DNA of 64,000 nt, from assembly GCA_902593475.1 (NCBI GenBank), contig CACJIM010000002.1, positions 2,427 through 66,426 on the forward strand. Reading direction: 5' to 3'. The notes under the pieces were generated by a model. It saw only the letters and a program-made list of their open reading frames with translations, had not been told where the DNA came from and did no database searches. Origin of the DNA: an uncultured Candidatus Actinomarina sp. GTDB lineage: Bacteria > Actinomycetota > Acidimicrobiia > Actinomarinales > Actinomarinaceae. A program made the position numbers and the translations under genes. Below, piece by piece: positions 3 through 50,292 of the stretch. The first letter of the stretch is position 1, and every line of letters begins with the position of its first letter.

Positions 3-182
3 ATAGAAACAAGAGATGTTTATCCAGCTTTATCTTCTCAAAAATACTTAGATGAATATAAGTCTGATAATTTAGAATATTCAGAAAATATTTACAATAA
101 ATTACTATGGCTTCCATCTGGAAATAACATAAGCGAAGAGCAGCTATCATTTATTTGTGAAACTATTTCAAAGTTTAAATGA
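3..182 (+). CDS. 3' end of a DegT/DnrJ/EryC1/StrS-family sugar aminotransferase (partial at window start)
   Basis: Frame 3 is open from base 3 to TGA at 180-182: IETRDVYPALS...NKLLWLPSGNNISEEQLSFICETISKFK, resembling the LxLP-x-ending C-terminus of DegT proteins; sits in a glycan cluster. Confidence 0.6.
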   Translation: METRDVYPALSSQKYLDEYKSDNLEYSENIYNKLLWLPSGNNISEEQLSFICETISKFK

Positions 183-218
183 ATATAAACATTTATTTTT
201 ATATCAATCTAATATGAA

Positions 219-971
219 GTGATGTATGTAAACATTGTATGGTATTTAAAAAGAATATATAGAAAAATTACAGGTTCAGGTTCCGTAGACACTTGGCAAT
301 TTAGAGACTACCTATACAAAGAATTAATAGATTTATATGGCAAAGAATATTTCAACAACAAAAGAATATTAGAAATAGGACCTCGTGATGGAGAGGATTC
401 TAAAAGATTAGAAGAACTTAATCCCTCAGAGTTTATTTTAATTGACCTTCCTGACAAAGAGGCTATTAATAATGAATGGTTGGGTGATTTGAAATCAAAT
501 CATAAATTTATTCAAGCAAATTTTTTATATATGTCACAAGAAGAATATGAAAGCATAGGTAAATTTGATTTAATTTACTTTACAGGGGTTTTGTATCATA
601 ATCCGGAACAATTAAGATTTATTCAAAAAATTTATGAAAAACTTAATTTTGGTGGTGTAGTCGTTTTAGAGAGTGCTACAACTAGAAAAAGAAAGTTTAT
701 TAATGAAAATGTTGTTGAAATACATCATCCAAAAACATATAGAGACACAACTACCATAAGCCATCTTCCTTCTAAACAAGCAATACTGAGTTGGCTTGAC
801 ATGGTTGGATTTAAAGAAATATTTATTTCAAAAAGCCATGAAAAAGAAAATTACAACACAAAAAATGTTCGCCTTGCTTGTATAGCTAAAAAAAATAAAG
901 AGGACATGCCGAGTAGCTATTATGAAAAAGATTTAAAAGAAAATGCCTTTATTATCGGAGGGTCAAATTAA
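219..971 (+). CDS. Class I SAM-dependent methyltransferase
   Basis: Motif I RILEIGPRDG; FDLIYFTGVLYH; GGVVVLES. Confidence 0.75.
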   Translation: MMYVNIVWYLKRIYRKITGSGSVDTWQFRDYLYKELIDLYGKEYFNNKRILEIGPRDGEDSKRLEELNPSEFILIDLPDKEAINNEWLGDLKSNHKFIQANFLYMSQEEYESIGKFDLIYFTGVLYHNPEQLRFIQKIYEKLNFGGVVVLESATTRKRKFINENVVEIHHPKTYRDTTTISHLPSKQAILSWLDMVGFKEIFISKSHEKENYNTKNVRLACIAKKNKEDMPSSYYEKDLKENAFIIGGSN

Positions 972-1097
972 TGAAAAAATTATATCCTTCTAGCAACCAA
1001 GCAAAATAGTAAACAAATCTATTAATAGGTATTTTATTTTCTATTGAGTTAGTAATTACTTTTTTTATTCTGCATTATTTATATGATTTCAATGTTT

Positions 1098-1565
1098 TTA
1101 TATATCTCTAATTGTTCTTGCTGGATTACCATATGCTAATTTACCCACAGAGACATCCTTAGTTACAACACTGCCAGCACCAATGAGACAATTTTTCATT
1201 AATTTGACGCCACATATTATTGTGCTGTTTGCACCTATTGACACATAATCCTCGACTGAAGTTTTAACTATTCTGGCCTCATCCCAACCATCTACTTTTG
1301 GAAACAAGTCATTTGTAAATACTACCGAAGGACCTATGAAAACATTTCTACCAATATCAACACCTTTATAGATTGATACATTGTTCTGTATTTTGGAATT
1401 ATCACCAATTACAACACCCTCGTCGATATACACATTTTGTCCAATTGTTACATTTGAACCAATAATTACATTTTCTCTAATATGTGTGAAGTGCCAAATT
1501 TTTGTATTGTCCCCAATTGTTGAATTACTGTCTACCAATGCAGTATCGTGCTTAAAATAATTCAT
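1098..1565 (-). CDS. Hexapeptide-repeat N-acetyltransferase (WbpD/WlbB-like, amino-sugar)
   Basis: IGDNTKIWHF, IGSNVTIGQNV, FIGPSVVFTND, IGAGSVVTKDV, GNPAR; ATG at 1565 is preceded by TATTAT plus 6 nt (ORF track starts at TTG 1571). Confidence 0.85.
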   Translation of the reverse strand: MNYFKHDTALVDSNSTIGDNTKIWHFTHIRENVIIGSNVTIGQNVYIDEGVVIGDNSKIQNNVSIYKGVDIGRNVFIGPSVVFTNDLFPKVDGWDEARIVKTSVEDYVSIGANSTIICGVKLMKNCLIGAGSVVTKDVSVGKLAYGNPARTIRDI

Positions 1566-1634
1566 ATTCAAATAATATCATCGAAGATTAGAATTGTGAG
1601 AATGTTTTTGTAGTAGTTTTTATTAATTTAGAAA

Positions 1635-1681
1635 AGGTATACATGGCTATAGGCGAATTCTAATTTATAACCCCTTGTTTT
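1635..1681 (-). repeat. Degenerate direct repeat of the tRNA-Phe 3' half (relic att-like copy 1)
   Basis: Ungapped match to 2801-2847 at 33/47 nt, including the exact 12-mer accccttgtttt. Confidence 0.75.
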
Positions 1682-1686
1682 AATAT

Positions 1687-1723
1687 TATTGGTTATCTGA
1701 GGCAGGTTCGAACTACTATAACC
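1687..1723 (-). repeat. Degenerate direct repeat of the tRNA-Phe T-arm/3' end (relic att-like copy 2)
   Basis: 1687-1716 matches 2804-2833 at 23/30 nt (tattggt, gaggcag and tcgaact blocks); minus strand reads GTAGTTCGAACCTGCC...ACCA. Confidence 0.7.
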
Positions 1724-1739
1724 ATAATTTTATAAAATA

Positions 1740-2747
1740 CTAGTAAATTAAAATATCTCCATGAGCATTGCTGTAAGAAATTTCATTACATATATCATTT
1801 AAAAACCCCGATCTAACCTTATAATTGTTATTACTTCTATCAAGCAAAATAGCATTGCTGTAAGAATTATTAATAAATAAATCCTCAAAGTTTTTAATAA
1901 ATAAATTTGGCGATTCTTGAGTAGAAGAAATTAAAGCAGGATTTATTTCAAATACTATTACCGGTTTAGAGGTAAGTTCTTGTACACCCTTTAACACAGA
2001 GTATTCATAACCCTCAATGTCGAGCCAAATCAATGTTCTTCTACTTATAGTTGGTATTTCATCCAATTCTGACAATGTACTTATTTTTCTTTTTTCGATA
2101 TTTTTAATATTTAAATTCATTTTTTTAGTATATTTCTCGATAAAACTTTTATTTAAAGTATCAAAAACCATTGAGTTTCCAGATTCGCCTTGAAAAGTTA
2201 CAAAAAACACATCTTTTTTAGAGGTTCCAATTAAAGACATAACTGTCTTACATCGTTGAGATAAATTATTTATATATATATTTGCATCTAAATAATTTTT
2301 AGAATAAGTATTCCCCTCAATTGCAGTTGCAGTTAATTTTTTATCAAGAAGAAGAAATGTGGTTGTAACTGAACCAATGTTTGCACCAACTTCTACAAGA
2401 TTTGAAATGGTTAATTTATTTTCTTTCAACAACCTTAAAACTTCCAAAACTTTTTTACTTTCATAGGGTTCTTGGTTTATGAATATTTTCTTACTTATTA
2501 TTCTGTCATTTGTATTTATAAAATATTTGCCATAACTTGTAGAAACTAATATCTCTTTATCTAAAGGTAAAAGTATAAAGAATATAATTCTAAATATTTT
2601 AAGATTTGAGACTTTGTTAAATATTATTTGAAAAGGAATAAATATTACATCTATATATTTTAAAAAATATGAAAATATCAATTGAACACTTTTTTTCTTT
2701 TTTAAGCTATCAAATATTTTTTTAGATATATTCGTTTTTTGAGTCAT
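1740..2747 (-). CDS. FkbM-family methyltransferase
   Basis: VEVGANIGS, LIWLDIEGYEYSVLKG, PVIVFE motifs. Confidence 0.85.
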   Translation of the reverse strand: MTQKTNISKKIFDSLKKKKSVQLIFSYFLKYIDVIFIPFQIIFNKVSNLKIFRIIFFILLPLDKEILVSTSYGKYFINTNDRIISKKIFINQEPYESKKVLEVLRLLKENKLTISNLVEVGANIGSVTTTFLLLDKKLTATAIEGNTYSKNYLDANIYINNLSQRCKTVMSLIGTSKKDVFFVTFQGESGNSMVFDTLNKSFIEKYTKKMNLNIKNIEKRKISTLSELDEIPTISRRTLIWLDIEGYEYSVLKGVQELTSKPVIVFEINPALISSTQESPNLFIKNFEDLFINNSYSNAILLDRSNNNYKVRSGFLNDICNEISYSNAHGDILIY

Positions 2748-2806
2748 AATTGTTAATGATATATTGTCTTTGAAAGAAAGCTAGTAAGAAAAATTCTTAT
2801 AGGTAT

Positions 2807-2882
2807 TGGTGGCCAGAGGCAGAATCGAACTGCCGACCCCTTGTTTTTCAGACAAGTGCTCTACCGACTGAGCTATCTGGCC
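2807..2882 (-). tRNA. tRNA-Phe(GAA)
   Basis: Cloverleaf: acceptor GGCCAGA/TCTGGCC, anticodon arm CTTGT-CTGAAAA-ACAAG, T-loop TTCGATT, encoded CCA. Confidence 0.97.
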
Positions 2883-2888
2883 AATTAG

Positions 2889-2963
2889 CGGGGACGACGG
2901 GATTCGAACCCGCGACCTCCTGCGTGACAGGCAGGCGTGAACTCCAGACTTCACCACGCCCCC
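2889..2963 (-). tRNA. tRNA-Asp(GTC)
   Basis: Acceptor GGGGGCG/CGTCCCC, anticodon arm CCTGC-CTGTCAC-GCAGG, GGTTCGAATCC; followed by CTA, not CCA. Confidence 0.96.
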
Positions 2964-4470: not shown

Positions 4471-4473
4471 TAG

Positions 4474-4546
4474 TGGGTCGGGTGGGAATCGAACCCACGA
4501 CCTTGAGCTTAAAAGGCTCCTGCTCTGCCGATTGAGCTACCGACCC
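4474..4546 (-). tRNA. tRNA-Lys(TTT)
   Basis: Acceptor GGGTCGG/CCGACCC, anticodon loop CTTTTAA, GGTTCGATTCC; followed by CTA. Confidence 0.95.
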
Positions 4547-5876: not shown

Positions 5877-7001
5877 ATGACCAAAAACTTAAACTACGTA
5901 ACATACCAAACATTTCCTGCGCAAACAGCAAATAGTTTACAAACAATATCAAACATTAAATATCTTATTAAAAATGGAGTGACAGTAAATCTTTATTTTC
6001 CATTAAGAGAAAAACAGAGCAGTGCAGATATAAAATCTTTACAGGATTTTTACAAATTTACGGAAACTTTCAATTCATTTGGAGTAAAACATCCTTATCC
6101 TCACGGAAAAATTAAATTCATCCAAAAATTGTGGTTTCATATAAGTCATATTTTATGGTCTAAAAAATTAATAAAAACAAGTTTTAAAAATGATAGGGAT
6201 AGTTATTTTTTTACAAGATCTGACTGGATAGCCTATTTTTTAGCAAATCAAGGCAGTAAAGTCATTTTCGAATGCCATCAAACATCTAAAGTAAGAAATT
6301 TTGTAATTAAAAAGATTGGAATGTTAGAAAATGTAAAATTTATTTTCTTAAATGAGAACTTGTACAAAAATTATAAAGAAGTGAATCAATCTATTGTTTT
6401 ACACAACGCTGCAGATTCAGATTTATTATCTATAAATTCGAACAAAAAAGAAAATTCCATTGTTTTTCTCGGAAATACACATAGGTTTAATCAATCTCGA
6501 GGTATAGGACAAATAATTTCCTGGTGGTCGGATACTGAGTTAAGAGAAAATTATACATTAGAAATTATTGGCGGTTCAACAAAGGATTGTGTTAACTTAA
6601 AAAATGAAATCCATGAATTAAAGTTATCAAACATTATTAAAGCCTCTCCATGGGTTGACAGGAAAATTGCAGCAAAAAAGCTGTCAGAAGCTACATTTGG
6701 ATTATTAATTAACACTCCAGATAACGATCACTCTTATTTATACACTTCACCGCTGAAGTATTTTGAGTACTTATATTGTGGCCTGTCTGTGATTGCAGTA
6801 GACTTTCCATCTCATAGAACATTACCAATTAATGAAAAAGTTAGTTTTTTTGAAAATGGTAATAAAGAATCATTTATTAATAGTTTAAATAATGCTAAAA
6901 AAAACATACCTCTGTCTAAAGATCAACTCTATATTACTTCACTAGATTACAGGGCAAAAAAGTTAATAGAGTTTATATTTAGCACGCCTGGAGGGATTTG
7001 A
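5877..7001 (+). CDS. GT4-family (GT-B) glycosyltransferase
   Basis: TSPLKYFEYLYCGLSVIAVD (EX7E-type region), FFECH; last 19 nt overlap tRNA-Arg on the opposite strand. Confidence 0.85.
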   Translation: MTKNLNYVTYQTFPAQTANSLQTISNIKYLIKNGVTVNLYFPLREKQSSADIKSLQDFYKFTETFNSFGVKHPYPHGKIKFIQKLWFHISHILWSKKLIKTSFKNDRDSYFFTRSDWIAYFLANQGSKVIFECHQTSKVRNFVIKKIGMLENVKFIFLNENLYKNYKEVNQSIVLHNAADSDLLSINSNKKENSIVFLGNTHRFNQSRGIGQIISWWSDTELRENYTLEIIGGSTKDCVNLKNEIHELKLSNIIKASPWVDRKIAAKKLSEATFGLLINTPDNDHSYLYTSPLKYFEYLYCGLSVIAVDFPSHRTLPINEKVSFFENGNKESFINSLNNAKKNIPLSKDQLYITSLDYRAKKLIEFIFSTPGGI

Positions 7002-7056
7002 ACCCCCAACCCTCTGATCCGAAGTCAGATGCTCTATCCAGTTGAGCTACAGGCGC
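6983..7056 (-). tRNA. tRNA-Arg(TCG)
   Basis: Acceptor GCGCCTG/CAGGCGT, anticodon arm TCTGA-CTTCGGA-TCAGA, GGTTCAAATCC; followed by CTA. Confidence 0.95.
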
Positions 7057-7088
7057 ATATTTTTTTTCTTTTAATAATATAAATACTA

Positions 7089-7826
7089 ATGAGAAAATTA
7101 AAAATTTTAAAAACTAATATATCTGAATTAACATTGGATCAGCTTTCAAAAACTCTACTTAATGAATCAAAGAAAACTGTAGCAGTCTGTAATGCTAACT
7201 CATTAGTAAGGTCATATAAAGACACTAATTTACAAAATATTATCAACAGTTTTGATATTTGTACTCCCGATGGATTTCCTGTCGCAATGGCTTCACGACT
7301 TTTATATAAAAATAAACAACAGAGAGTTGATGGGTTTAAAATTTTTAATAACACATTAGTTAATAGTGAACATACTGGAATAACTCACTACTTTTTTGGT
7401 AATACTGAAGAGGTTGTGGTGAAAATTATAAATAAATATAAAAAAAATTTTCCTGGTGTTAATATTGTAGGTTTTTGTTGTCCACCATTTTTAAATGTTG
7501 ATGAATTAGCAAGTGACCAATATTTTAAAGAGATTATAGAACTCAATCCGGATATAATTTGGTTCTCCCTTGGATTTCCAAAACAAGAAAGATTAATAGA
7601 CCTAGTAAAACAAAAATACTCGTTATCTTCAAATCTTGTTGGAGTAGGTTTCACATTTGATTGGACTGCAGGAACTAAGTATAAAGCCCCAGAGTTAATA
7701 GCGAATATTGGGTTAGAGTGGTTTTTTAGATTGATTCAAGAGCCCAGGAGACTTTACAAAAGATATTTAATTGATAATTCATTATTTATACTTTACTTTT
7801 TGAGGCAACTACTCTTTCGCAGATAA
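7089..7826 (+). CDS. WecB/TagA/CpsF-family glycosyltransferase
   Basis: TPDGFPV, RVDG, SLGFPKQE, GLEWFFRLIQEPRRLYKRY. Confidence 0.92.
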   Translation: MRKLKILKTNISELTLDQLSKTLLNESKKTVAVCNANSLVRSYKDTNLQNIINSFDICTPDGFPVAMASRLLYKNKQQRVDGFKIFNNTLVNSEHTGITHYFFGNTEEVVVKIINKYKKNFPGVNIVGFCCPPFLNVDELASDQYFKEIIELNPDIIWFSLGFPKQERLIDLVKQKYSLSSNLVGVGFTFDWTAGTKYKAPELIANIGLEWFFRLIQEPRRLYKRYLIDNSLFILYFLRQLLFRR

Positions 7827-7858
7827 TCATTAAAATAAAGATTAGAAAATTGTATTAA

Positions 7859-9499
7859 ATGAATAACCTTTTTAACAAATTAATAAATTTACTGAATAAT
7901 GAATTTAAAAAATTTGATTTAGATGAAGCTATAAAGTTAAATTTATCAAAAATGCCAGAGTTTGATATGCAGATAAATAATTTAGTTAAGTACAATAAAT
8001 CAGACTTTTTTAGTAGTCTTCAAAAAAATATTATTGAAATTATTGATTCAACAAACTACTTTCTACCAGTTGAAAAAAATGAGATTGGTTTTTTAAACTT
8101 AGTTTTTAACCACGATAATTTAATTAAAGATATAACAAATAAGAAAAGTGATTTTGAAATCAATAATCGTGAGAAGATAATCTTTGATTATGGTGGCCCA
8201 AACATAGGTAAACCTTTGCACGTTGGGCACATGCGTACGCTTAATATTGGAAGAAGTTTATATAACATTCACTCTTTTATTGGAAATAATGTTGTTAGCG
8301 ACATTCATTTAGGTGATTGGGGTATGCCTATTGCACAAATTATTACATATTTAGAGAATCAATCAGTTGATATAAATGCTCTAGATTCCGATCAATTAGA
8401 AATAATATATCCAAAAGCTAGCGAGCAATACAAAATTAGCGAAAATTTTAAAATTCGAGCTCAAGAAATCAATAAACTTCTTAATGACAATGACGCAGAA
8501 CTTCTAAAAATATGGGAGTCGATTAAAAATATATCTAAAAAAAGTCTGGAAGAAAATTTTTCACTTCTTAATCACAGTTTTGATTATTGGTTAGGTGAAA
8601 GTGATGTAAATGAGTTGATTCCAGAAATGATCGAGTCACTGTACAAAAACAAAAAAATTATTGATGACTCAGGAGCTTTAATAAGTGCTGAAGACACAGA
8701 TCCAAAAATATTAATTACAAAATCTGATGGCTCATATCTATATATAACCACTGATCTTGCAACTATCTTGTATAGACAAAATAATATTGGATACGACAAA
8801 ACACTTTATATTGTTGATAATCGTCAATCTTTACACTTTCAACAGTTATTTGATTCAATAAAGTTTTTTGAATTCAATAATCTACACCATGAGCATATTT
8901 CTTATGGAACTCTTAACGACAGTGATGGTAACCCTTTTAAAACTAGAGATGGTGGAACAAAACCTCTAAGTGAATTATTTGAAGAAACACAAAATTACAT
9001 AAAAAATATAAATAGTGACCTGGAGAAATCAACAATCAAACAATTGACAAATTCTGTTTTAACTTTTAGTGATTTGATTACAAATAGAAAAACTGACTAT
9101 AAGTTTGATTTAGAAAAATTCACCAACGTAAATGGTAAAACAGGAATCTATGTTCAATATGCTCAAGTAAGGGCAAAAAAATTACAACAAAGCATCCCTC
9201 AGCAAAAAAATGAAATCGAAAATTTAGTTCTGTCTGATATTGATAAACAATTGCTATCGCAATTATTTATGTTTGGATATTTTCTTGAGCAGTCTTTTTT
9301 GCTTAATGAACCTCACCATCTTGCAAATTATCTATATGATATCTCAAATTCATTTAATCAATTTTATGAACATGAAAAACTTTCAGAAATAGAAAACTCT
9401 ATTCATTTGAGCTCCAAACTTTATTTGGTAAATTTATTTTTAACTACTAGTCAAAACGTCATGTTTTGTTTAGGTATAAAGCCTGTTGAAAAAATGTAA
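7859..9499 (+). CDS. argS: Arginine--tRNA ligase
   Basis: DYGGPNIGKPLHVGHMR (HIGH), HLGDWG, KSDGSYLYITTDLA, FKTRDG, GIYVQYA, GIKPVEKM. Confidence 0.96.
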   Translation: MNNLFNKLINLLNNEFKKFDLDEAIKLNLSKMPEFDMQINNLVKYNKSDFFSSLQKNIIEIIDSTNYFLPVEKNEIGFLNLVFNHDNLIKDITNKKSDFEINNREKIIFDYGGPNIGKPLHVGHMRTLNIGRSLYNIHSFIGNNVVSDIHLGDWGMPIAQIITYLENQSVDINALDSDQLEIIYPKASEQYKISENFKIRAQEINKLLNDNDAELLKIWESIKNISKKSLEENFSLLNHSFDYWLGESDVNELIPEMIESLYKNKKIIDDSGALISAEDTDPKILITKSDGSYLYITTDLATILYRQNNIGYDKTLYIVDNRQSLHFQQLFDSIKFFEFNNLHHEHISYGTLNDSDGNPFKTRDGGTKPLSELFEETQNYIKNINSDLEKSTIKQLTNSVLTFSDLITNRKTDYKFDLEKFTNVNGKTGIYVQYAQVRAKKLQQSIPQQKNEIENLVLSDIDKQLLSQLFMFGYFLEQSFLLNEPHHLANYLYDISNSFNQFYEHEKLSEIENSIHLSSKLYLVNLFLTTSQNVMFCLGIKPVEKM

Positions 9500-10042
9500 C
9501 TATAAGAAAATCTGGGTTGAGATAATCCAAATAATCAGTACCAAGCTGTAGGAATATTTATCTATAATATATAAGTTTTTTCCAAAGTTATGAAATAGGA
9601 AAAGAACTAAAGGAATTGCTATAAATCCTGAGAACGATACTGCTCTAGCAATAACTAAGTATTCAGTTACAAATACATTTTGATTTCTAAGTAGTACTTG
9701 AAAAACAACTAAGCAAAGCAAAGACACAAAAATTACAGATACTATATTTGTTAACAAATTTTTAAATGATCTATTTTCAATGAAATACTCGTTAAAAAAT
9801 TCTACTGGTATAAATAAAACAAATATCGAAATAAATAATGTAATAAAGGACCAGAAGAGACCTTGTCCACTCCAACTAATAAAAGCTTGTTCGACAAAAC
9901 CAGATGACTCTAAGAATAAATAAATTGAAAAACCTAGTAATGAAGTACCTAGAACAAAACAATAAAGACCCATAACTGAAAAGACTTGACTTTTATTTAA
10001 AGATAAATTACTTTTACCAAGTTTTTTTACTTCGTATTGCAT
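9500..10042 (-). CDS. Hypothetical multi-pass membrane protein
   Basis: About 5 hydrophobic segments; abuts argS stop. Confidence 0.6.
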   Translation of the reverse strand: MQYEVKKLGKSNLSLNKSQVFSVMGLYCFVLGTSLLGFSIYLFLESSGFVEQAFISWSGQGLFWSFITLFISIFVLFIPVEFFNEYFIENRSFKNLLTNIVSVIFVSLLCLVVFQVLLRNQNVFVTEYLVIARAVSFSGFIAIPLVLFLFHNFGKNLYIIDKYSYSLVLIIWIISTQIFL

Positions 10043-10084
10043 ACAGACATATTAACTGTTTTTATATTAAAATATTATTTAAAT

Positions 10085-10327
10085 ATGGAATTAATAGACA
10101 CTCCTAATCCAAATGCTAGAAAAATTATAGTTGACCATGACTATGAAATTTCTATATACATTAATCAAGACTCTAGTGGTGTTAGTGGACTAGCTAAAAA
10201 TCTTTTAGAAATTAACGGAGTTGCTTCCGTCTTTACTGGTCCCGGCTTTTTAACTCTTACCAAAGAGGATTCAGCTGATTGGGTAACTATTAATACAGAT
10301 ATATTAAATAAGTTTGATACAATATAG
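10085..10327 (+). CDS. Stand-alone NifU/Nfu N-terminal (scaffold) domain protein
   Basis: TPNPNARK, LLEINGVASVF, FLTLTK, ADW motifs; likely start MELIDTPNP at 10085 (ORF track 10037). Confidence 0.8.
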   Translation: MELIDTPNPNARKIIVDHDYEISIYINQDSSGVSGLAKNLLEINGVASVFTGPGFLTLTKEDSADWVTINTDILNKFDTI

Positions 10328-10329
10328 CT

Positions 10330-10941
10330 ATGGAAACCTTTAATCCAGATCCGAAACCCGGAAGAGTTGTTCTTCCGTTAGTCCTTATTGGAATGATTGC
10401 AACAACTTATACTTTTATAAATAGAGTTACAACAAATAATGATTTGGATTTGATAGCTGAAGAAACCCCAGTTGAAACCTTAGCAGATGAAGTAGTTGTC
10501 GAAGATACTTCTACAACAAGTACAACCACCACTCTTCCAGATAATTATGTGCAATACCTCGAAGAAATAAGTGCTGAAAAAATTCAAGCAACTGAATTAG
10601 GTAAAGATGTTTTAGAAGCTAATGAAAACTGGGATGCACAATCAGTTACTTACCAAGAGGCAAAGGATGAATTTAGAGCTTTTATCGCAACTGCTGAAGA
10701 GTTTGTTATAACAGTAACTGACCCCGGACCTCCAAATGAATATGCAAATTTAGTTACAAGCCATGAAGAGCTAAAGACTTTAGTTAACTTAATCTATGAA
10801 GATACCGTGGAGTTACTTGCTGGGCTTGAATCATCTGATACAGGTGAACAAAGAGCAGCGGCTCTTGATTCGTTTAACAACAACTTGGATCAGTTTATTA
10901 AAAAGATTGAAGAAGTTGTTGCATCAGCAACTTCTAGCTAG
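10330..10941 (+). CDS. Hypothetical membrane-anchored protein with Thr-rich linker
   Basis: N-terminal TM helix, TSTTSTTTTLP linker, acidic helical domain. Confidence 0.65.
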   Translation: METFNPDPKPGRVVLPLVLIGMIATTYTFINRVTTNNDLDLIAEETPVETLADEVVVEDTSTTSTTTTLPDNYVQYLEEISAEKIQATELGKDVLEANENWDAQSVTYQEAKDEFRAFIATAEEFVITVTDPGPPNEYANLVTSHEELKTLVNLIYEDTVELLAGLESSDTGEQRAAALDSFNNNLDQFIKKIEEVVASATSS

Positions 10942-11962
10942 AAGCTGCTGAACAAACAGTATCAATCATTAACATAGCAATCACGTAAGGATCACCATTA
11001 GCATTGGGTCTTCTGTCTTCTAAATAGCCTTTTTTGTCGACTTCGACTTGCCAAGGGATTCTTATTGATGCACCTCTGTCACTAACTCCATAAGAAAAAG
11101 TATCAAAACTTTGAGTTTCATGATCACCTGTCAGCCTGTCTTCAATGTTTGCACCGTAATTTTTTACATGCAAATCAGCATTTTTACCAAGAGCTTCACA
11201 TCCTGCAACGATAGCATCGTATCCGCCATCTTCTCTCATTTGTTTTGTGGAGAAATTAGTATGCATACCAGCGCCATTCCAATCACCTTTCACAGGTTTT
11301 GGATCTAGTGTTGCAGAGATATTCCAATCTTCAGCAATTCTATAAAGCAACCATCTTGCAACCCATATTTGATCACCAATATCTGGTGCACCTACAGGCC
11401 CAATTTGAAACTCCCACTGACCAGGCATAACTTCGGCATTTGTACCTGAAATACCTAATCCAGCTTCAATACATGCAGTTGCATGAGCTTCAGAAATCTC
11501 TCTTCCATAAACTTCGTCAGCACCAACACCACAATAATAACCACCTTGAGGTGCTGGATATCCTGATGGGGGAAATCCTAAAGGTTGTCCGTATTTAAGT
11601 GAGTCATAAGACTGTTCGTAAAATGTATACTCTTGTTCCATTCCAAACCAAGGCTCAAATTCACCAAAATTTTCAGCCGACTCTACTAATGCAGCTCTAG
11701 TATTAGATGCATGTGGTGTCATGTCTACATTCATTACTTCACACATAACTAAAATATTGTCGCCACCTCTCACTGGATCAGAAAATTGGGCAACTGGCTT
11801 TAACACACAATCAGATTGGTCACCTGTTGCTTGTTGAGTACTAGAACCGTCAAAACCCCAAATAGGAGGCTCTGTTCCTTGATCGATTATTTTTGTTTTA
11901 CTCCTTAATTTTGCGGTCGGAGTTAGACCGTCAATCCATATATATTCTGCTTTTATCTTCAT
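10934..11962 (-). CDS. glnII: Glutamine synthetase type II
   Basis: AEYIWIDG, LRSKTK, WGFDGSST, NAEVMPGQWEFQIGP, DWNGAGMHTNFST, RGASIRIP, LEDRRP; 342 aa is GSII size. Confidence 0.95.
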   Translation of the reverse strand: MKIKAEYIWIDGLTPTAKLRSKTKIIDQGTEPPIWGFDGSSTQQATGDQSDCVLKPVAQFSDPVRGGDNILVMCEVMNVDMTPHASNTRAALVESAENFGEFEPWFGMEQEYTFYEQSYDSLKYGQPLGFPPSGYPAPQGGYYCGVGADEVYGREISEAHATACIEAGLGISGTNAEVMPGQWEFQIGPVGAPDIGDQIWVARWLLYRIAEDWNISATLDPKPVKGDWNGAGMHTNFSTKQMREDGGYDAIVAGCEALGKNADLHVKNYGANIEDRLTGDHETQSFDTFSYGVSDRGASIRIPWQVEVDKKGYLEDRRPNANGDPYVIAMLMIDTVCSAASS

Positions 11963-11995
11963 GAAAATAATGTAATATATATTTCAAGCAATGTT

Positions 11996-12022
11996 GTTAC
12001 AGAATTATTAAATAATTGTTTC
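11996..12022 (-). promoter_or_regulatory. Possible GlnR-type half sites in the glnII/glnR intergenic region
   Basis: Minus strand GAAAC (12018-12022) and GTAAC (11996-12000), 22 bp apart; resembles GlnR a/b pentamers but not in canonical order. Confidence 0.3.
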
Positions 12023-12025
12023 GAG

Positions 12026-12655
12026 ATGATAGATACATATATAAACATAGATAAAGAGCATAAAAACTTCGAAGACTTATTAAAGTCTTCTGGTGTTAAA
12101 AAACTCGCCGTTAAGAATATACAGACCCCAAAGCAAATACATTTAGTTGTAACATCATTTTCGAAATACGGCGAAACTAAGAAAAATTTGTCAGATTTAG
12201 AATCCTCCACTAAACCTTTTCCTACTTTAATTATTGTTAATGAAGTAGATTTTGAACAAACAGTTGACCTAATTCAAAATCCTCAAATTGAATTAATTTC
12301 GAGTAATAGCAAATTAGAAGAAGTGGGTGCAAGAGTTCATGCACTAGTAGGTGATAGTGATTCAGAAATACTTGAATTCAAGGACCTCAGTATTAATTTG
12401 AAAACTTATGAAGCAAAAGCGGGTGATGTGCTACTCGACCTAACATTCATGGAGTATGAGTTATTAAAGTTTTTTGTTGTGAACCAGGAAAATGTTTGGT
12501 CAAGAGAGCAGCTTCTAGAAAAGGTTTGGGGTTACGATTATTTCGGAGGCGCAAGAACAGTTGATGTTCATGTTAGAAGACTAAGAGCAAAGCTTGGTGA
12601 CCAAAGAAATGATTGGATTAAAACAGTACACTCAGTCGGTTACAAATTTAACTAA
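12026..12655 (+). CDS. glnR: GlnR-like OmpR-family regulator (atypical receiver plus winged helix)
   Basis: LDLTFMEYELL...SREQLLEKVWGYDYFGGARTVDVHVRRLRAKLG is the actinobacterial GlnR DNA-binding signature; divergent from glnII. Confidence 0.85.
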   Translation: MIDTYINIDKEHKNFEDLLKSSGVKKLAVKNIQTPKQIHLVVTSFSKYGETKKNLSDLESSTKPFPTLIIVNEVDFEQTVDLIQNPQIELISSNSKLEEVGARVHALVGDSDSEILEFKDLSINLKTYEAKAGDVLLDLTFMEYELLKFFVVNQENVWSREQLLEKVWGYDYFGGARTVDVHVRRLRAKLGDQRNDWIKTVHSVGYKFN

Positions 12656-49994: not shown

Positions 49995-50014
49995 ATATTT
50001 AGGTTACCTTATTG

Positions 50015-50087
50015 TGGAGATGATGGGACTTGAACCCACGACCCCCTGCTTGCAAAGCAGGTGCTCTTCCAGCTGAGCTACATCCCC
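50015..50087 (-). tRNA. tRNA-Ala(TGC)
   Basis: Acceptor GGGGATG/CATCTCC with G3:U70; anticodon arm CCTGC-TTTGCAA-GCAGG; followed by CAA. Confidence 0.96.
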
Positions 50088-50175
50088 TCGCATTTATATT
50101 ATGCACTGAATACTACAGTAAATGAAAAAAAAATTTAAATATTTCCATTGATAGACTATTGTTAATTAGACGTAT

Positions 50176-50250
50176 GGGCCTATAGCTCAGCCTGGTTAGA
50201 GCGCATCCCTGATAAGGATGAGGTCGTTAGTTCAAATCTAACTAGGCCCA
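50176..50250 (+). tRNA. tRNA-Ile(GAT)
   Basis: Acceptor GGGCCTA/TAGGCCC; anticodon arm CATCC-CTGATAA-GGATG; followed by CAA. Confidence 0.96.
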
Positions 50251-50292
50251 CAAGTACCTTTATTTAAACCAATCCTCTTATATACTGTTGCC

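What the first reader, a model, noticed from the sequence alone, without database searches (positions are those of the whole stretch)
1635..1723. Two tandem decayed copies of the tRNA-Phe 3' half mark repeated cassette insertion without an integrase
Seen: 1635-1681 matches the tRNA-Phe 3' half and trailer (2801-2847) at 33/47 ungapped, including an exact 12-mer. 1687-1716 is a second copy (23/30) that still ends in ACCA. Both have the tRNA orientation and, with the intact tRNA, bracket the FkbM gene. Known: tRNA 3' ends are integration targets and leave attL/attR repeats. Inference: the FkbM gene is a single-gene cassette in an additive glycan island that has had at least two insertions, with no integrase in the window.
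Basis: partly seen in the sequence, partly recalled or inferred. Interest (0 to 1): 0.65.

Follow-up and report, generated by a model that had tools for sequence, protein, structure and literature searches.

The report
Decayed tRNA-Phe integration scars
Two worn-down copies of the end of the tRNA-Phe gene are old scars of small integrase-carrying mobile elements that repeatedly plug gene cassettes (here a sugar-modifying methyltransferase) into the cell-surface island of the marine actinobacterium Actinomarina; the island behaviour was already published, but the element that does it had apparently not been pinned down.

Summary
Window 1635-1681 and 1687-1716 are the two best non-tRNA matches to the tRNA-Phe 3' half in the 837-kb assembly. 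They lie in tRNA orientation, just downstream of the single tRNA-Phe, behind an FkbM methyltransferase gene.

Half of the related species genomes (27 of 54) carry one to three near-perfect extra copies of tRNA-Phe positions 31-74/76. These copies bound 0.6-2.9 kb cassettes of variable content. A 96%-identical metagenomic relative has the same FkbM-relic block, but a later 2.85-kb insertion has pushed it outward.

The genome is a Ca. Actinomarina-type Acidimicrobiia, and the locus is the border of the glycotype island fGI1. Lopez-Perez et al. 2020 already described tRNA-repeat-bounded cassette insertion there, so the phenomenon is known.

The agent appears to be new. It is a family of 6-9 kb circular elements with a 380-aa tyrosine integrase, Xis-like and repressor-like HTH proteins, an AAA_25 helicase and a cargo slot. 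Their attP equals tRNA-Phe 31-76. One copy is intact in a single-cell genome at this same site, and ~0.6-kb arm-retaining mini-cassettes also occur. The window holds no integrase or element remnant.

The parts
2807..2882 (-). Intact single-copy tRNA-Phe(GAA). This is the attachment site: attB, or attL after integration.
   Evidence: ARAGORN; Rfam RF00005, 75.3 bits; it is the only tRNA-Phe in the assembly.
2809..2852 (-). att core, tRNA positions 31-74 (anticodon loop to the first C of CCA). This 44-nt block is repeated in relatives and carried as attP by the circular elements.
   Evidence: Extra copies in relatives begin at position 31/32 and end at 74/76. attP in L088, L111 and others is identical.
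2748..2806 (-). tRNA trailer resembling an element-derived P' arm. It travels with the FkbM gene.
   Evidence: The same trailer follows a truncated core in L127. It also follows the distal core in G024 and one core in G006.
1740..2747 (-). FkbM-family methyltransferase gene (335 aa), the cargo of the innermost cassette.
   Evidence: PF05050, E 1.7e-11. Absent from the 63 other species genomes. Homologues at 85-95% aa identity in metagenomes lie in other contexts, flanked by tRNA-Phe cores.
1687..1716 (-). Relic 2: decayed copy of tRNA-Phe positions 50-76 plus 3 trailer bases (23/30). A weak continuation reaches about 1737 (9/21).
1635..1681 (-). Relic 1: decayed copy of tRNA-Phe positions 36-76 plus 6 trailer bases (33/47). 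It is the outermost and presumably oldest scar.
1098..1571 (-). Hexapeptide-repeat acetyltransferase, the first island gene distal to the scars. It is co-oriented with FkbM, so the relics lie in its upstream region.
   Evidence: PF00132, E 2.3e-30. The same neighbour is present in L120-L123 and L127.
2888..2963 (-). tRNA-Asp. With tRNA-Lys (4473-4546) and tRNA-Arg (6982-7056) it forms the tRNA cluster at the island border.
   Evidence: The order tRNA-Arg, Lys, Asp, Phe is the same in single-cell genome locus L108. The literature agrees.

Best explanation
The two sequences are eroded attR-type scars of site-specific integration into the 3' half of tRNA-Phe.

Shown by comparison: a family of small elements carries an attP whose 44-46-nt core equals tRNA-Phe positions 31-74/76. 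The core is flanked by a conserved P arm and by a P' arm bearing paired ~10-nt direct repeats. The elements are 6.0-9.2 kb and circular when free. They encode a 380-382-aa tyrosine integrase with an AP2-like N-terminal domain, an HTH_17 excisionase-like protein, an HTH_3 repressor-like protein, an AAA_25 RepA/DnaB-like helicase, a 250-330-aa protein of unknown function, and a cargo slot next to attP.

Recombination with the tRNA rebuilds an intact tRNA-Phe (attL). It places the cargo next to the tRNA and leaves the integrase, P arm and a partial tRNA copy (attR) at the far end.

Inferred: in these streamlined genomes the integrase/replication module is soon deleted, leaving cargo plus scar. 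The next element integrates again at the tRNA and pushes older cassettes outward (accretion). Scars no longer in use then decay neutrally toward AT.

In this window, relic 1 is the oldest scar and its cargo is gone. Relic 2 is the scar of the cassette that brought the trailer plus the FkbM methyltransferase, and nothing has been inserted since. Some cassettes (for example a 0.62-kb one encoding a 127-aa membrane protein) keep both arms but no integrase, and were probably moved in trans or by accretion with an autonomous element.
For: Geometry and statistics of the relics.

Genus-wide picture: 27 of the 54 species genomes that hold the core have 2-4 copies at <=3 mismatches. Copies start at tRNA position 31/32, lie downstream in tRNA orientation, and are spaced 0.6-2.9 kb apart with unrelated cargo (GNAT, MFS+DsrE, methyltransferases, lipoproteins, membrane proteins). 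The P arm is conserved upstream of the partial copies.

Integrase remnants lie about 170 bp from distal copies in G003 and G002 and in metagenome loci L091, L093 and L096-98.

Full-length integrase followed by a perfect 46-nt core occurs in L084-L090. Contig ends overlap with periods of 6020, 6075 and 9155 bp.

An intact 6.07-kb element sits between tRNA-Phe and attR in single-cell genome JAOOCF010000001 (L108). The neighbours are the same as in the window (WecG, GT1, MpaB, Bac_transf, tRNA-Arg/Lys/Asp). It is 98.6% colinear with circle L111, which gives attP, attL and attR. Several relatives (e.g. G004, G008, G010-G012, G015, G019) show no second copy within the 9-12 kb fetched downstream, but their tRNA trailers look arm-like, so a pristine attB was not identified.

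Accretion seen directly for this very cassette: L127/L128.

FkbM homologues followed by P arm + core: L112-L116 and L131.

Mini-cassette 99.2% identical across two species, arms included.
Against: No P arm or integrase remnant survives between the FkbM stop codon and relic 2 (only 23 nt), and no element remnant exists anywhere in this 60%-complete assembly. Delivery of FkbM by such an element is therefore inferred, not seen.

Homology to the 94%-identical FkbM in L112 stops 21 nt upstream and 13 nt downstream of the ORF. That pattern also fits gene-sized exchange by homologous or illegitimate recombination.

Relics 1 and 2 are only 5 nt apart, which requires a complete, non-site-specific deletion of the older cargo.

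No recombination activity has been tested. Circularity rests on overlapping contig ends, which tandem concatemers would also give.
Confidence: 0.8

Rival explanations
1. The relics are genuine old integration scars, but the FkbM gene was not brought by an integrating element. It was swapped in later by homologous or illegitimate recombination within the glycotype island (gene-sized replacement), using the tRNA/trailer and the scars only as neighbouring sequence.
For: Sharp homology breakpoints lie 21 nt upstream and 13 nt downstream of the ORF relative to L112-L115, where the gene follows an epimerase with no core in between. No P arm or integrase remnant is next to FkbM in the window. Glycotype islands are known to exchange by recombination (PMC7771536).
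Against: In L127/L128 the unit trailer+FkbM is bounded on both sides by tRNA-Phe core remnants, which is the structure of a cassette in an accretion array. The trailer is arm-like and recurs after cores in other species. FkbM homologues in L112, L116 and L131 are each followed by P arm + core.
Confidence: 0.15
2. The relics are decayed tandem duplicates (pseudogenes) of the tRNA-Phe gene, made by segmental duplication or replication slippage rather than by site-specific integration.
For: They are in tandem, in tRNA orientation and close to the gene. Relic 1 also shares 6 trailer bases with the gene.
Against: Only the 3' part is present in both relics, with no trace of the 5' half upstream. In relatives every well-preserved copy starts at position 31/32 and is preceded by a conserved non-tRNA P arm. 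Integrases with a matching attP exist. The relics are not copies of each other.
Confidence: 0.03
3. The similarity is chance or convergent, for example a T-arm-like hairpin acting as a terminator or regulatory element for the acetyltransferase gene, with no history of integration.
For: The region is the FkbM/acetyltransferase intergenic spacer. The GGTTCGAA T-loop motif is generic to tRNAs.
Against: None of 5000 shuffles reach the scores, and each relic is specific for tRNA-Phe over the 31 other tRNAs. These are the top two non-tRNA hits genome-wide. SNPs between 99.5%-identical strains concentrate in the relics, so there is no sign of constraint.
Confidence: 0.02

Closest known systems
Flexible genomic island fGI1 (glycotype island) of 'Ca. 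Actinomarinales', Lopez-Perez et al. 2020, mSystems (PMC7771536); HVR of 'Actinomarina, resolved' (bioRxiv 10.64898/2026.04.03.716425)
   Same: Same lineage and same island, with the same tRNA cluster (Phe, Asp, Lys, Arg) at its border. [quoted passage not shown]
   Different: Those papers name no integrase or mobile element. The word 'integrase' does not occur in either main text. The first states that mobile elements are absent, and the second calls the integration mechanism unknown. Here the relics are old, decayed scars rather than recent perfect repeats, and a matching integrase-bearing element family was found.
Tycheposons of Prochlorococcus (Hackl et al., bioRxiv 10.1101/2020.12.28.424599; Cell 2023)
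   Same: Integration occurs at the 3' part of island-associated tRNA genes, leaving partial tRNA repeats. Successive integrations push older elements into the island. Fragmented integrases and scattered partial tRNAs are found. The elements are modular: a tyrosine recombinase at one end, a small replication module (helicase/primase) and cargo.
   Different: The host phylum differs. Whether the integrase belongs to the tycheposon-specific recombinase lineage was not tested. The elements here are small (6-9 kb) and their cargo is mostly tiny ORFs or envelope-modification genes.
Cis-mobilizable elements (CIMEs) and accretion arrays of integrative elements (concept from Streptococcus ICE/IME work; recalled from memory)
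   Same: Segments are flanked by att sites but lack recombination genes. Tandem arrays are formed by integration of a new element next to an old one.
   Different: Mobilisation of the Actinomarina mini-cassettes has not been shown. No conjugation genes are involved.
Actinomycete integrative elements such as pSE211/pSAM2 (AICEs; recalled from memory, pSE211 uses a tRNA-Phe gene)
   Same: Actinobacterial host. An int-xis-rep module is present. The att identity block runs from the anticodon loop to the 3' end of a tRNA gene. A free circular replicative form exists.
   Different: No FtsK/SpoIIIE-type transfer protein was detected. Pfam finds only AAA_25 in the large ATPase. The elements are much smaller.
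Marine phage satellites: VEIMEs (PMC9618062), PICMI
   Same: Small size. They combine integrase, AlpA/Xis-like HTH, repressor-like HTH and primase/helicase-type genes. Circle- or concatemer-like contigs occur in seawater metagenomes.
   Different: No packaging or interference gene was recognised. No helper phage is known. There were no hits in IMG/VR.

Membership tests
attL/attR scars of tRNA-targeted tyrosine-integrase elements | Direct repeat equal to the 3' part of a tRNA gene, in the same orientation and downstream of the intact gene. | tested here: met
attL/attR scars of tRNA-targeted tyrosine-integrase elements | Repeat boundary fixed at the anticodon loop, with an element-derived arm next to it. 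| tested here: inconclusive
   Met for the well-preserved copies in relatives and metagenomes, which start at position 31/32 with a conserved P arm. In the window, relic 1 starts at position 36 and relic 2 at about 50 (possibly 31), and no P arm survives.
attL/attR scars of tRNA-targeted tyrosine-integrase elements | A cognate tyrosine integrase lies next to attR in intact copies, and a free form has a single attP. | tested here: met
   L108 is integrated and L111, L088, L090, L105 and L106 are circularly permuted. PF00589 E 3.7e-18 and phrog_1 E 1.6e-59. This is not present in the window itself.
attL/attR scars of tRNA-targeted tyrosine-integrase elements | Content between the tRNA and the repeats varies among related strains. 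| tested here: met
Ca. Actinomarinales fGI1 additive cassette insertion (Lopez-Perez 2020) | Envelope-polysaccharide island bordered by a tRNA cluster, in an Actinomarina-type genome. | tested here: met
   Glycan genes. tRNA-Phe/Asp/Lys/Arg. Genus genomes are 0.6-1.1 Mb and the own assembly is about 33% GC; a genus member is SAG AH-545-I07, Acidimicrobiia. The literature description matches.
Tycheposons | Integrase belongs to the tycheposon-specific tyrosine recombinase lineage and the elements share the hallmark gene set. | not tested
   No tycheposon reference sequences were compared. Only the architecture and island dynamics match.
Integron gene cassettes | IntI integron integrase with attI, and cassettes ending in attC. 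| tested here: not met
   The integrase scores 42.6 bits against TIGR02249 integrase_gron, whose cut-off is 265. Cassettes end in tRNA-Phe cores, not attC.
AICE (actinomycete integrative and conjugative elements) | FtsK/SpoIIIE-type DNA translocase for conjugative transfer. | tested here: not met
   Among the element proteins scanned, the only domains found are AAA_25, HTH_17, HTH_3 and the integrase (with a faint AP2 hit); the remaining element ORFs match nothing.
Phage satellites (PICI/VEIME-like) | Dependence on a helper phage for packaging; packaging or interference genes. | not testable with these tools
   No terS, capsid or interference gene was recognised. No match in IMG/VR. Unannotated ORFs remain.

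The most novel reading that the evidence does not exclude
The Actinomarina surface-glycan island is built by a so far undescribed family of 6-9 kb circular integrase-helicase elements. These elements also have ~0.6-kb non-autonomous derivatives that keep only the two arms and one gene. The autonomous elements move the derivatives in trans. The result would be a functional analogue of an integron cassette system that uses the 3' half of an essential single-copy tRNA as its attachment site, and that operates in one of the smallest free-living genomes, previously reported to lack mobile elements.
Probability: 0.35. Interest if true: 0.6.

Novelty: new member of a known kind. Interest (0 to 1): 0.4.

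Why it matters
The scars themselves are an ordinary instance of a published island dynamic.

The follow-up has more value. Two papers on Actinomarina left open how cassettes enter the hypervariable glycotype island, and one of them stated that mobile elements are absent. This work supplies a concrete candidate that can be tested at the bench: an integrase with a defined attP (arms plus a 44-nt core) and a defined attB. It also supplies natural examples of every stage: the free circle, a fresh integration, a decayed element with an integrase stub, cargo-only cassettes, and eroded scars.

The stages show how a ~1-Mb streamlined genome can keep sampling envelope-modification genes, which probably relates to phage evasion, while paying almost nothing for the machinery.

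Tried and rejected
1. IMG/VR scans found nothing. They used the att core as a DNA pattern, the integrase fragment and the full integrase.

2. The extra PF00589 hits in G047 and G004 are a Xer-type recombinase gene next to rpsB-tsf-pyrH-frr, so they are housekeeping genes and not island integrases.

3. G060 has a 336-aa integrase beside tRNA-Leu, between two tRNA-Ile copies. G076 has a 366-aa integrase beside tRNA-Val. Both belong to other elements at other tRNAs and are only 24-38% identical.

4. I first read the window's tRNA trailer (CAATACCTATAAG...) as the ancestral chromosomal flank. That would mean an empty site, with FkbM outside any cassette. I dropped this reading because the same trailer follows partial cores in G024, G006 and L127, and related trailers carry arm-type paired repeats.

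5. tblastn with all element proteins against the whole assembly found only the two Xer-like (housekeeping-type) recombinase genes.

6. The 250-330-aa element protein has no Pfam, PHROG, NCBIfam or PDB-sequence match. The AlphaFold model had pLDDT 51.6, so no fold search was run.

7. A score-15 match at C2:69641, outside the window, is GC-rich and gapped and is probably chance.

8. No partial copies of the other five tRNAs occur in the window.

Full report
**1. What is in the window.**
- tRNA-Phe(GAA) lies at 2807-2882 on the minus strand, directly after tRNA-Asp (2888-2963). tRNA-Lys and tRNA-Arg lie further on.
- Downstream of tRNA-Phe, all on the minus strand, come a 59-nt trailer, an FkbM-family methyltransferase gene (1740-2747; PF05050, E 1.7e-11), a 168-nt spacer, and a hexapeptide acetyltransferase (1098-1571).
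- Beyond these lie a methyltransferase and a DegT aminotransferase. On the other side of the tRNAs are Bac_transf, MpaB-like, GT1 and WecG genes.
- The spacer holds the two reported sequences.

**2.
- 1635-1681 aligns ungapped with 2801-2847 at 33/47, including a 12-mer. 1687-1716 aligns with 2804-2833 at 23/30.
- In tRNA terms, relic 1 is positions 36-76 plus six trailer bases. Relic 2 is positions 50-76 plus three trailer bases and retains ACCA.
- Local scores of 19 and 16 were reached by none of 2000 dinucleotide shuffles (relic 1) or 5000 mononucleotide shuffles (each relic); means were 5.7-7.3 and maxima 10-13.
- Each relic prefers tRNA-Phe over the 31 other tRNAs of the assembly, 19 versus 11 and 16 versus 9.5.
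- In a scan of all 837 kb on both strands they are the two best non-tRNA hits.
- Their differences from the tRNA are 14 GC>AT against 2 AT>GC.
- Each is closer to the tRNA than to the other relic (23/30 and 18/30 versus 14/30), with one shared derived change.
- They are therefore two independent, neutrally decaying copies of the tRNA 3' half.
- Four independent metagenome contigs at 99.4-99.6% identity show the same arrangement. Their few SNPs cluster in the relics.

**3. The organism and what is already published.**
- Genus relatives have 0.6-1.1 Mb genomes, and the own assembly is about 33% GC. One relative is SAG AH-545-I07, labelled 'Acidimicrobiia bacterium'.
- Lopez-Perez et al. 2020 state that the five tRNAs in glycotype island fGI1 are targets for small cassettes. 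[quoted passage not shown]
- They report no mobile elements. The 2026 preprint says the integration mechanism remains to be identified.

**4. The genus confirms a hotspot.**
- With the 43-nt core as a pattern (<=3 mismatches), 54 of 64 species genomes have it. Of these, 27 have two to four copies.
- In the loci fetched, extra copies are 98-100% identical to tRNA positions 31/32-74/76. They lie downstream in tRNA orientation and are spaced 608-2846 nt apart.
- They enclose unrelated cargo: a 127-aa membrane protein, a GNAT, MFS plus DsrE, methyltransferases, lipoproteins and a large membrane protein.
- Each partial copy is preceded by a conserved non-tRNA arm (...GAATAAGTTAAAAT...AGGTCA.A.GGTTTGCCCTTA). 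The arm supplies an alternative pairing partner for the anticodon-stem 3' strand.
- The window's FkbM gene has no homologue in the other 63 genomes.

**5. The integrase.**
- The genus has only two Xer-sized tyrosine recombinase genes per genome. The exception is a 145-aa C-terminal integrase stub in G003, about 170 bp from the distal tRNA-Phe copy, plus a 44-aa remnant in G002.
- That stub led to metagenome contigs with a full 382-aa integrase at 96-98% identity. A perfect 46-nt copy of tRNA-Phe 31-76 follows 170-280 bp downstream.
- Contigs from different samples are circular permutations of one another, with overlapping ends. The periods are 6020 bp (L088, L090), 6075 bp (L111, 502 bp at 100%) and 9155 bp (L105, L106).
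- Genes: integrase (PF00589; phrog_1 E 1.6e-59; faint AP2-like N-terminus), an HTH_17 excisionase-like protein, an HTH_3 repressor-like protein, an AAA_25 helicase with primase/helicase PHROG matches, a 250-330-aa unknown, and small cargo ORFs beside attP.
- The protein family has 75 clusters at E<=1e-20, many on 5-7 kb contigs.

**6. All junctions are seen.**
- In SAG contig JAOOCF010000001 (L108) the order is WecG, GT1, MpaB, Bac_transf, tRNA-Arg/Lys/Asp/Phe, then a 6.07-kb element, then P arm + core, then glycan genes. This is the window's own neighbourhood.
- The element is 98.6% colinear with circle L111. In the circle, the P arm (next to attR in L108) and the P' arm (next to the tRNA in L108) flank one core.
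- Several relatives (e.g. G004, G008, G010-G012, G015, G019) show no second copy within the 9-12 kb fetched downstream, but their tRNA trailers look arm-like, so a pristine attB was not identified.
- After integration the integrase ends up distal, which explains the stubs next to distal copies. The cargo slot ends up next to the tRNA.
- Intermediate decay states (tRNA, cargo, integrase stub, attR) occur in L091, L093 and L096-98. Arrays of up to four cores occur in L109.

**7. Cassettes without an integrase.**
- The 127-aa cassette (about 620 bp) keeps the P' and P arms, each with two ACTGTCACAAAA-type repeats.
- It is 99.2% identical over 634 nt between two species. This fits recent transfer and a non-autonomous element served in trans or by accretion. 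That step is inference.

**8. The FkbM cassette itself.**
- Homologues at 85-95% aa identity exist only in metagenomes.
- L127/L128 are 95.8% identical to window 3-2829. They share the trailer, FkbM, relic 2, relic 1, the acetyltransferase, the methyltransferase and DegT.
- Where the window has the intact tRNA, these scaffolds have only GATTCTGTCTCTGGCCAACA, a truncated core. It is preceded by a 2.85-kb segment (DUF2334, formyltransferase-like, a second FkbM) and then by a P arm plus a 45/46 core.
- The same cassette is thus adjacent to the tRNA in one lineage and displaced outward by a later insertion in another.
- In L112-L116 and L131 the gene (92-94% nt) lies in larger segments that end in P arm + core. 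In L119 a 63% homologue lies about 540 nt downstream of a tRNA-Phe 3' end.

**9. Remaining doubts.**
- No arm or integrase trace remains beside FkbM in the window, and none anywhere in this 60%-complete assembly.
- The sharp homology breakpoints relative to L112 leave room for recombinational exchange of the gene (rival 1).
- The 5-nt gap between the relics needs a clean deletion of older cargo.

**10. Verdict.**
- The island phenomenon is already known for this lineage and closely parallels tycheposon-built islands.
- The added value is the identification of the likely integrating element family and its att architecture.

Noticed in passing
Relatives: L057 (G010:C5:511.7 kb), L053 and L052 (G006), L055 (G021), L036 (G013:C15): A second tRNA-Phe-derived site lies far from the gene (about 370 kb away in G010). 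It is a 5'-truncated pseudo-tRNA-Phe (positions ~22-76, with its own anticodon-stem strand and no P arm) next to a conserved gene beginning MKRIYTFGHEQV. It is followed by a variable lipoprotein cassette, and in G013 by a P-arm + core copy. It looks like a second, tRNA-less attachment site. It was not found in this incomplete assembly.
   Followed up: partly
L082 (G060:C1:219000-238500) 6844-12044; corresponds to window 50014-50251: At the tRNA-Ile/tRNA-Ala site that also exists in the window, G060 has two full tRNA-Ile(GAT) genes 4.9 kb apart. They enclose a 336-aa integrase and a tRNA-Leu(TAA). This is a different integrating element that duplicates a whole tRNA. The window has no partial tRNA-Ile or tRNA-Ala copies.
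   Followed up: partly
L105 9388-9467, L108 10748-10827, L109, L111 6050-6129: ARAGORN calls P arm + att core an 80-nt 'tRNA-Phe' with the anticodon at position 40. Such scars may inflate tRNA counts in annotated Actinomarina genomes (39-52 tRNAs per genome are reported in the 2026 preprint).
   Followed up: no
tRNA-Phe 3' ends in relatives: In most relatives the identity to tRNA-Phe ends at position 74, and the element's P' arm (for example AAGGTTTTT) replaces the encoded CA of CCA. After such insertions the essential single-copy tRNA-Phe would depend on the CCA-adding enzyme. In the window CCA is encoded.
   Followed up: no
L083 (G076:C3:164500-184000) 8982-10400: A 366-aa integrase lies beside tRNA-Val(TAC). 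This is probably the tRNA-Val prophage type mentioned by Lopez-Perez et al. 2020.
   Followed up: no
G000 contig C2:67734-67827 (about 1.3 kb beyond the window end): ARAGORN reports a 94-nt 'tRNA-His' with anticodon ATG. This is an odd call that may be a pseudo-tRNA or a false positive.
   Followed up: no
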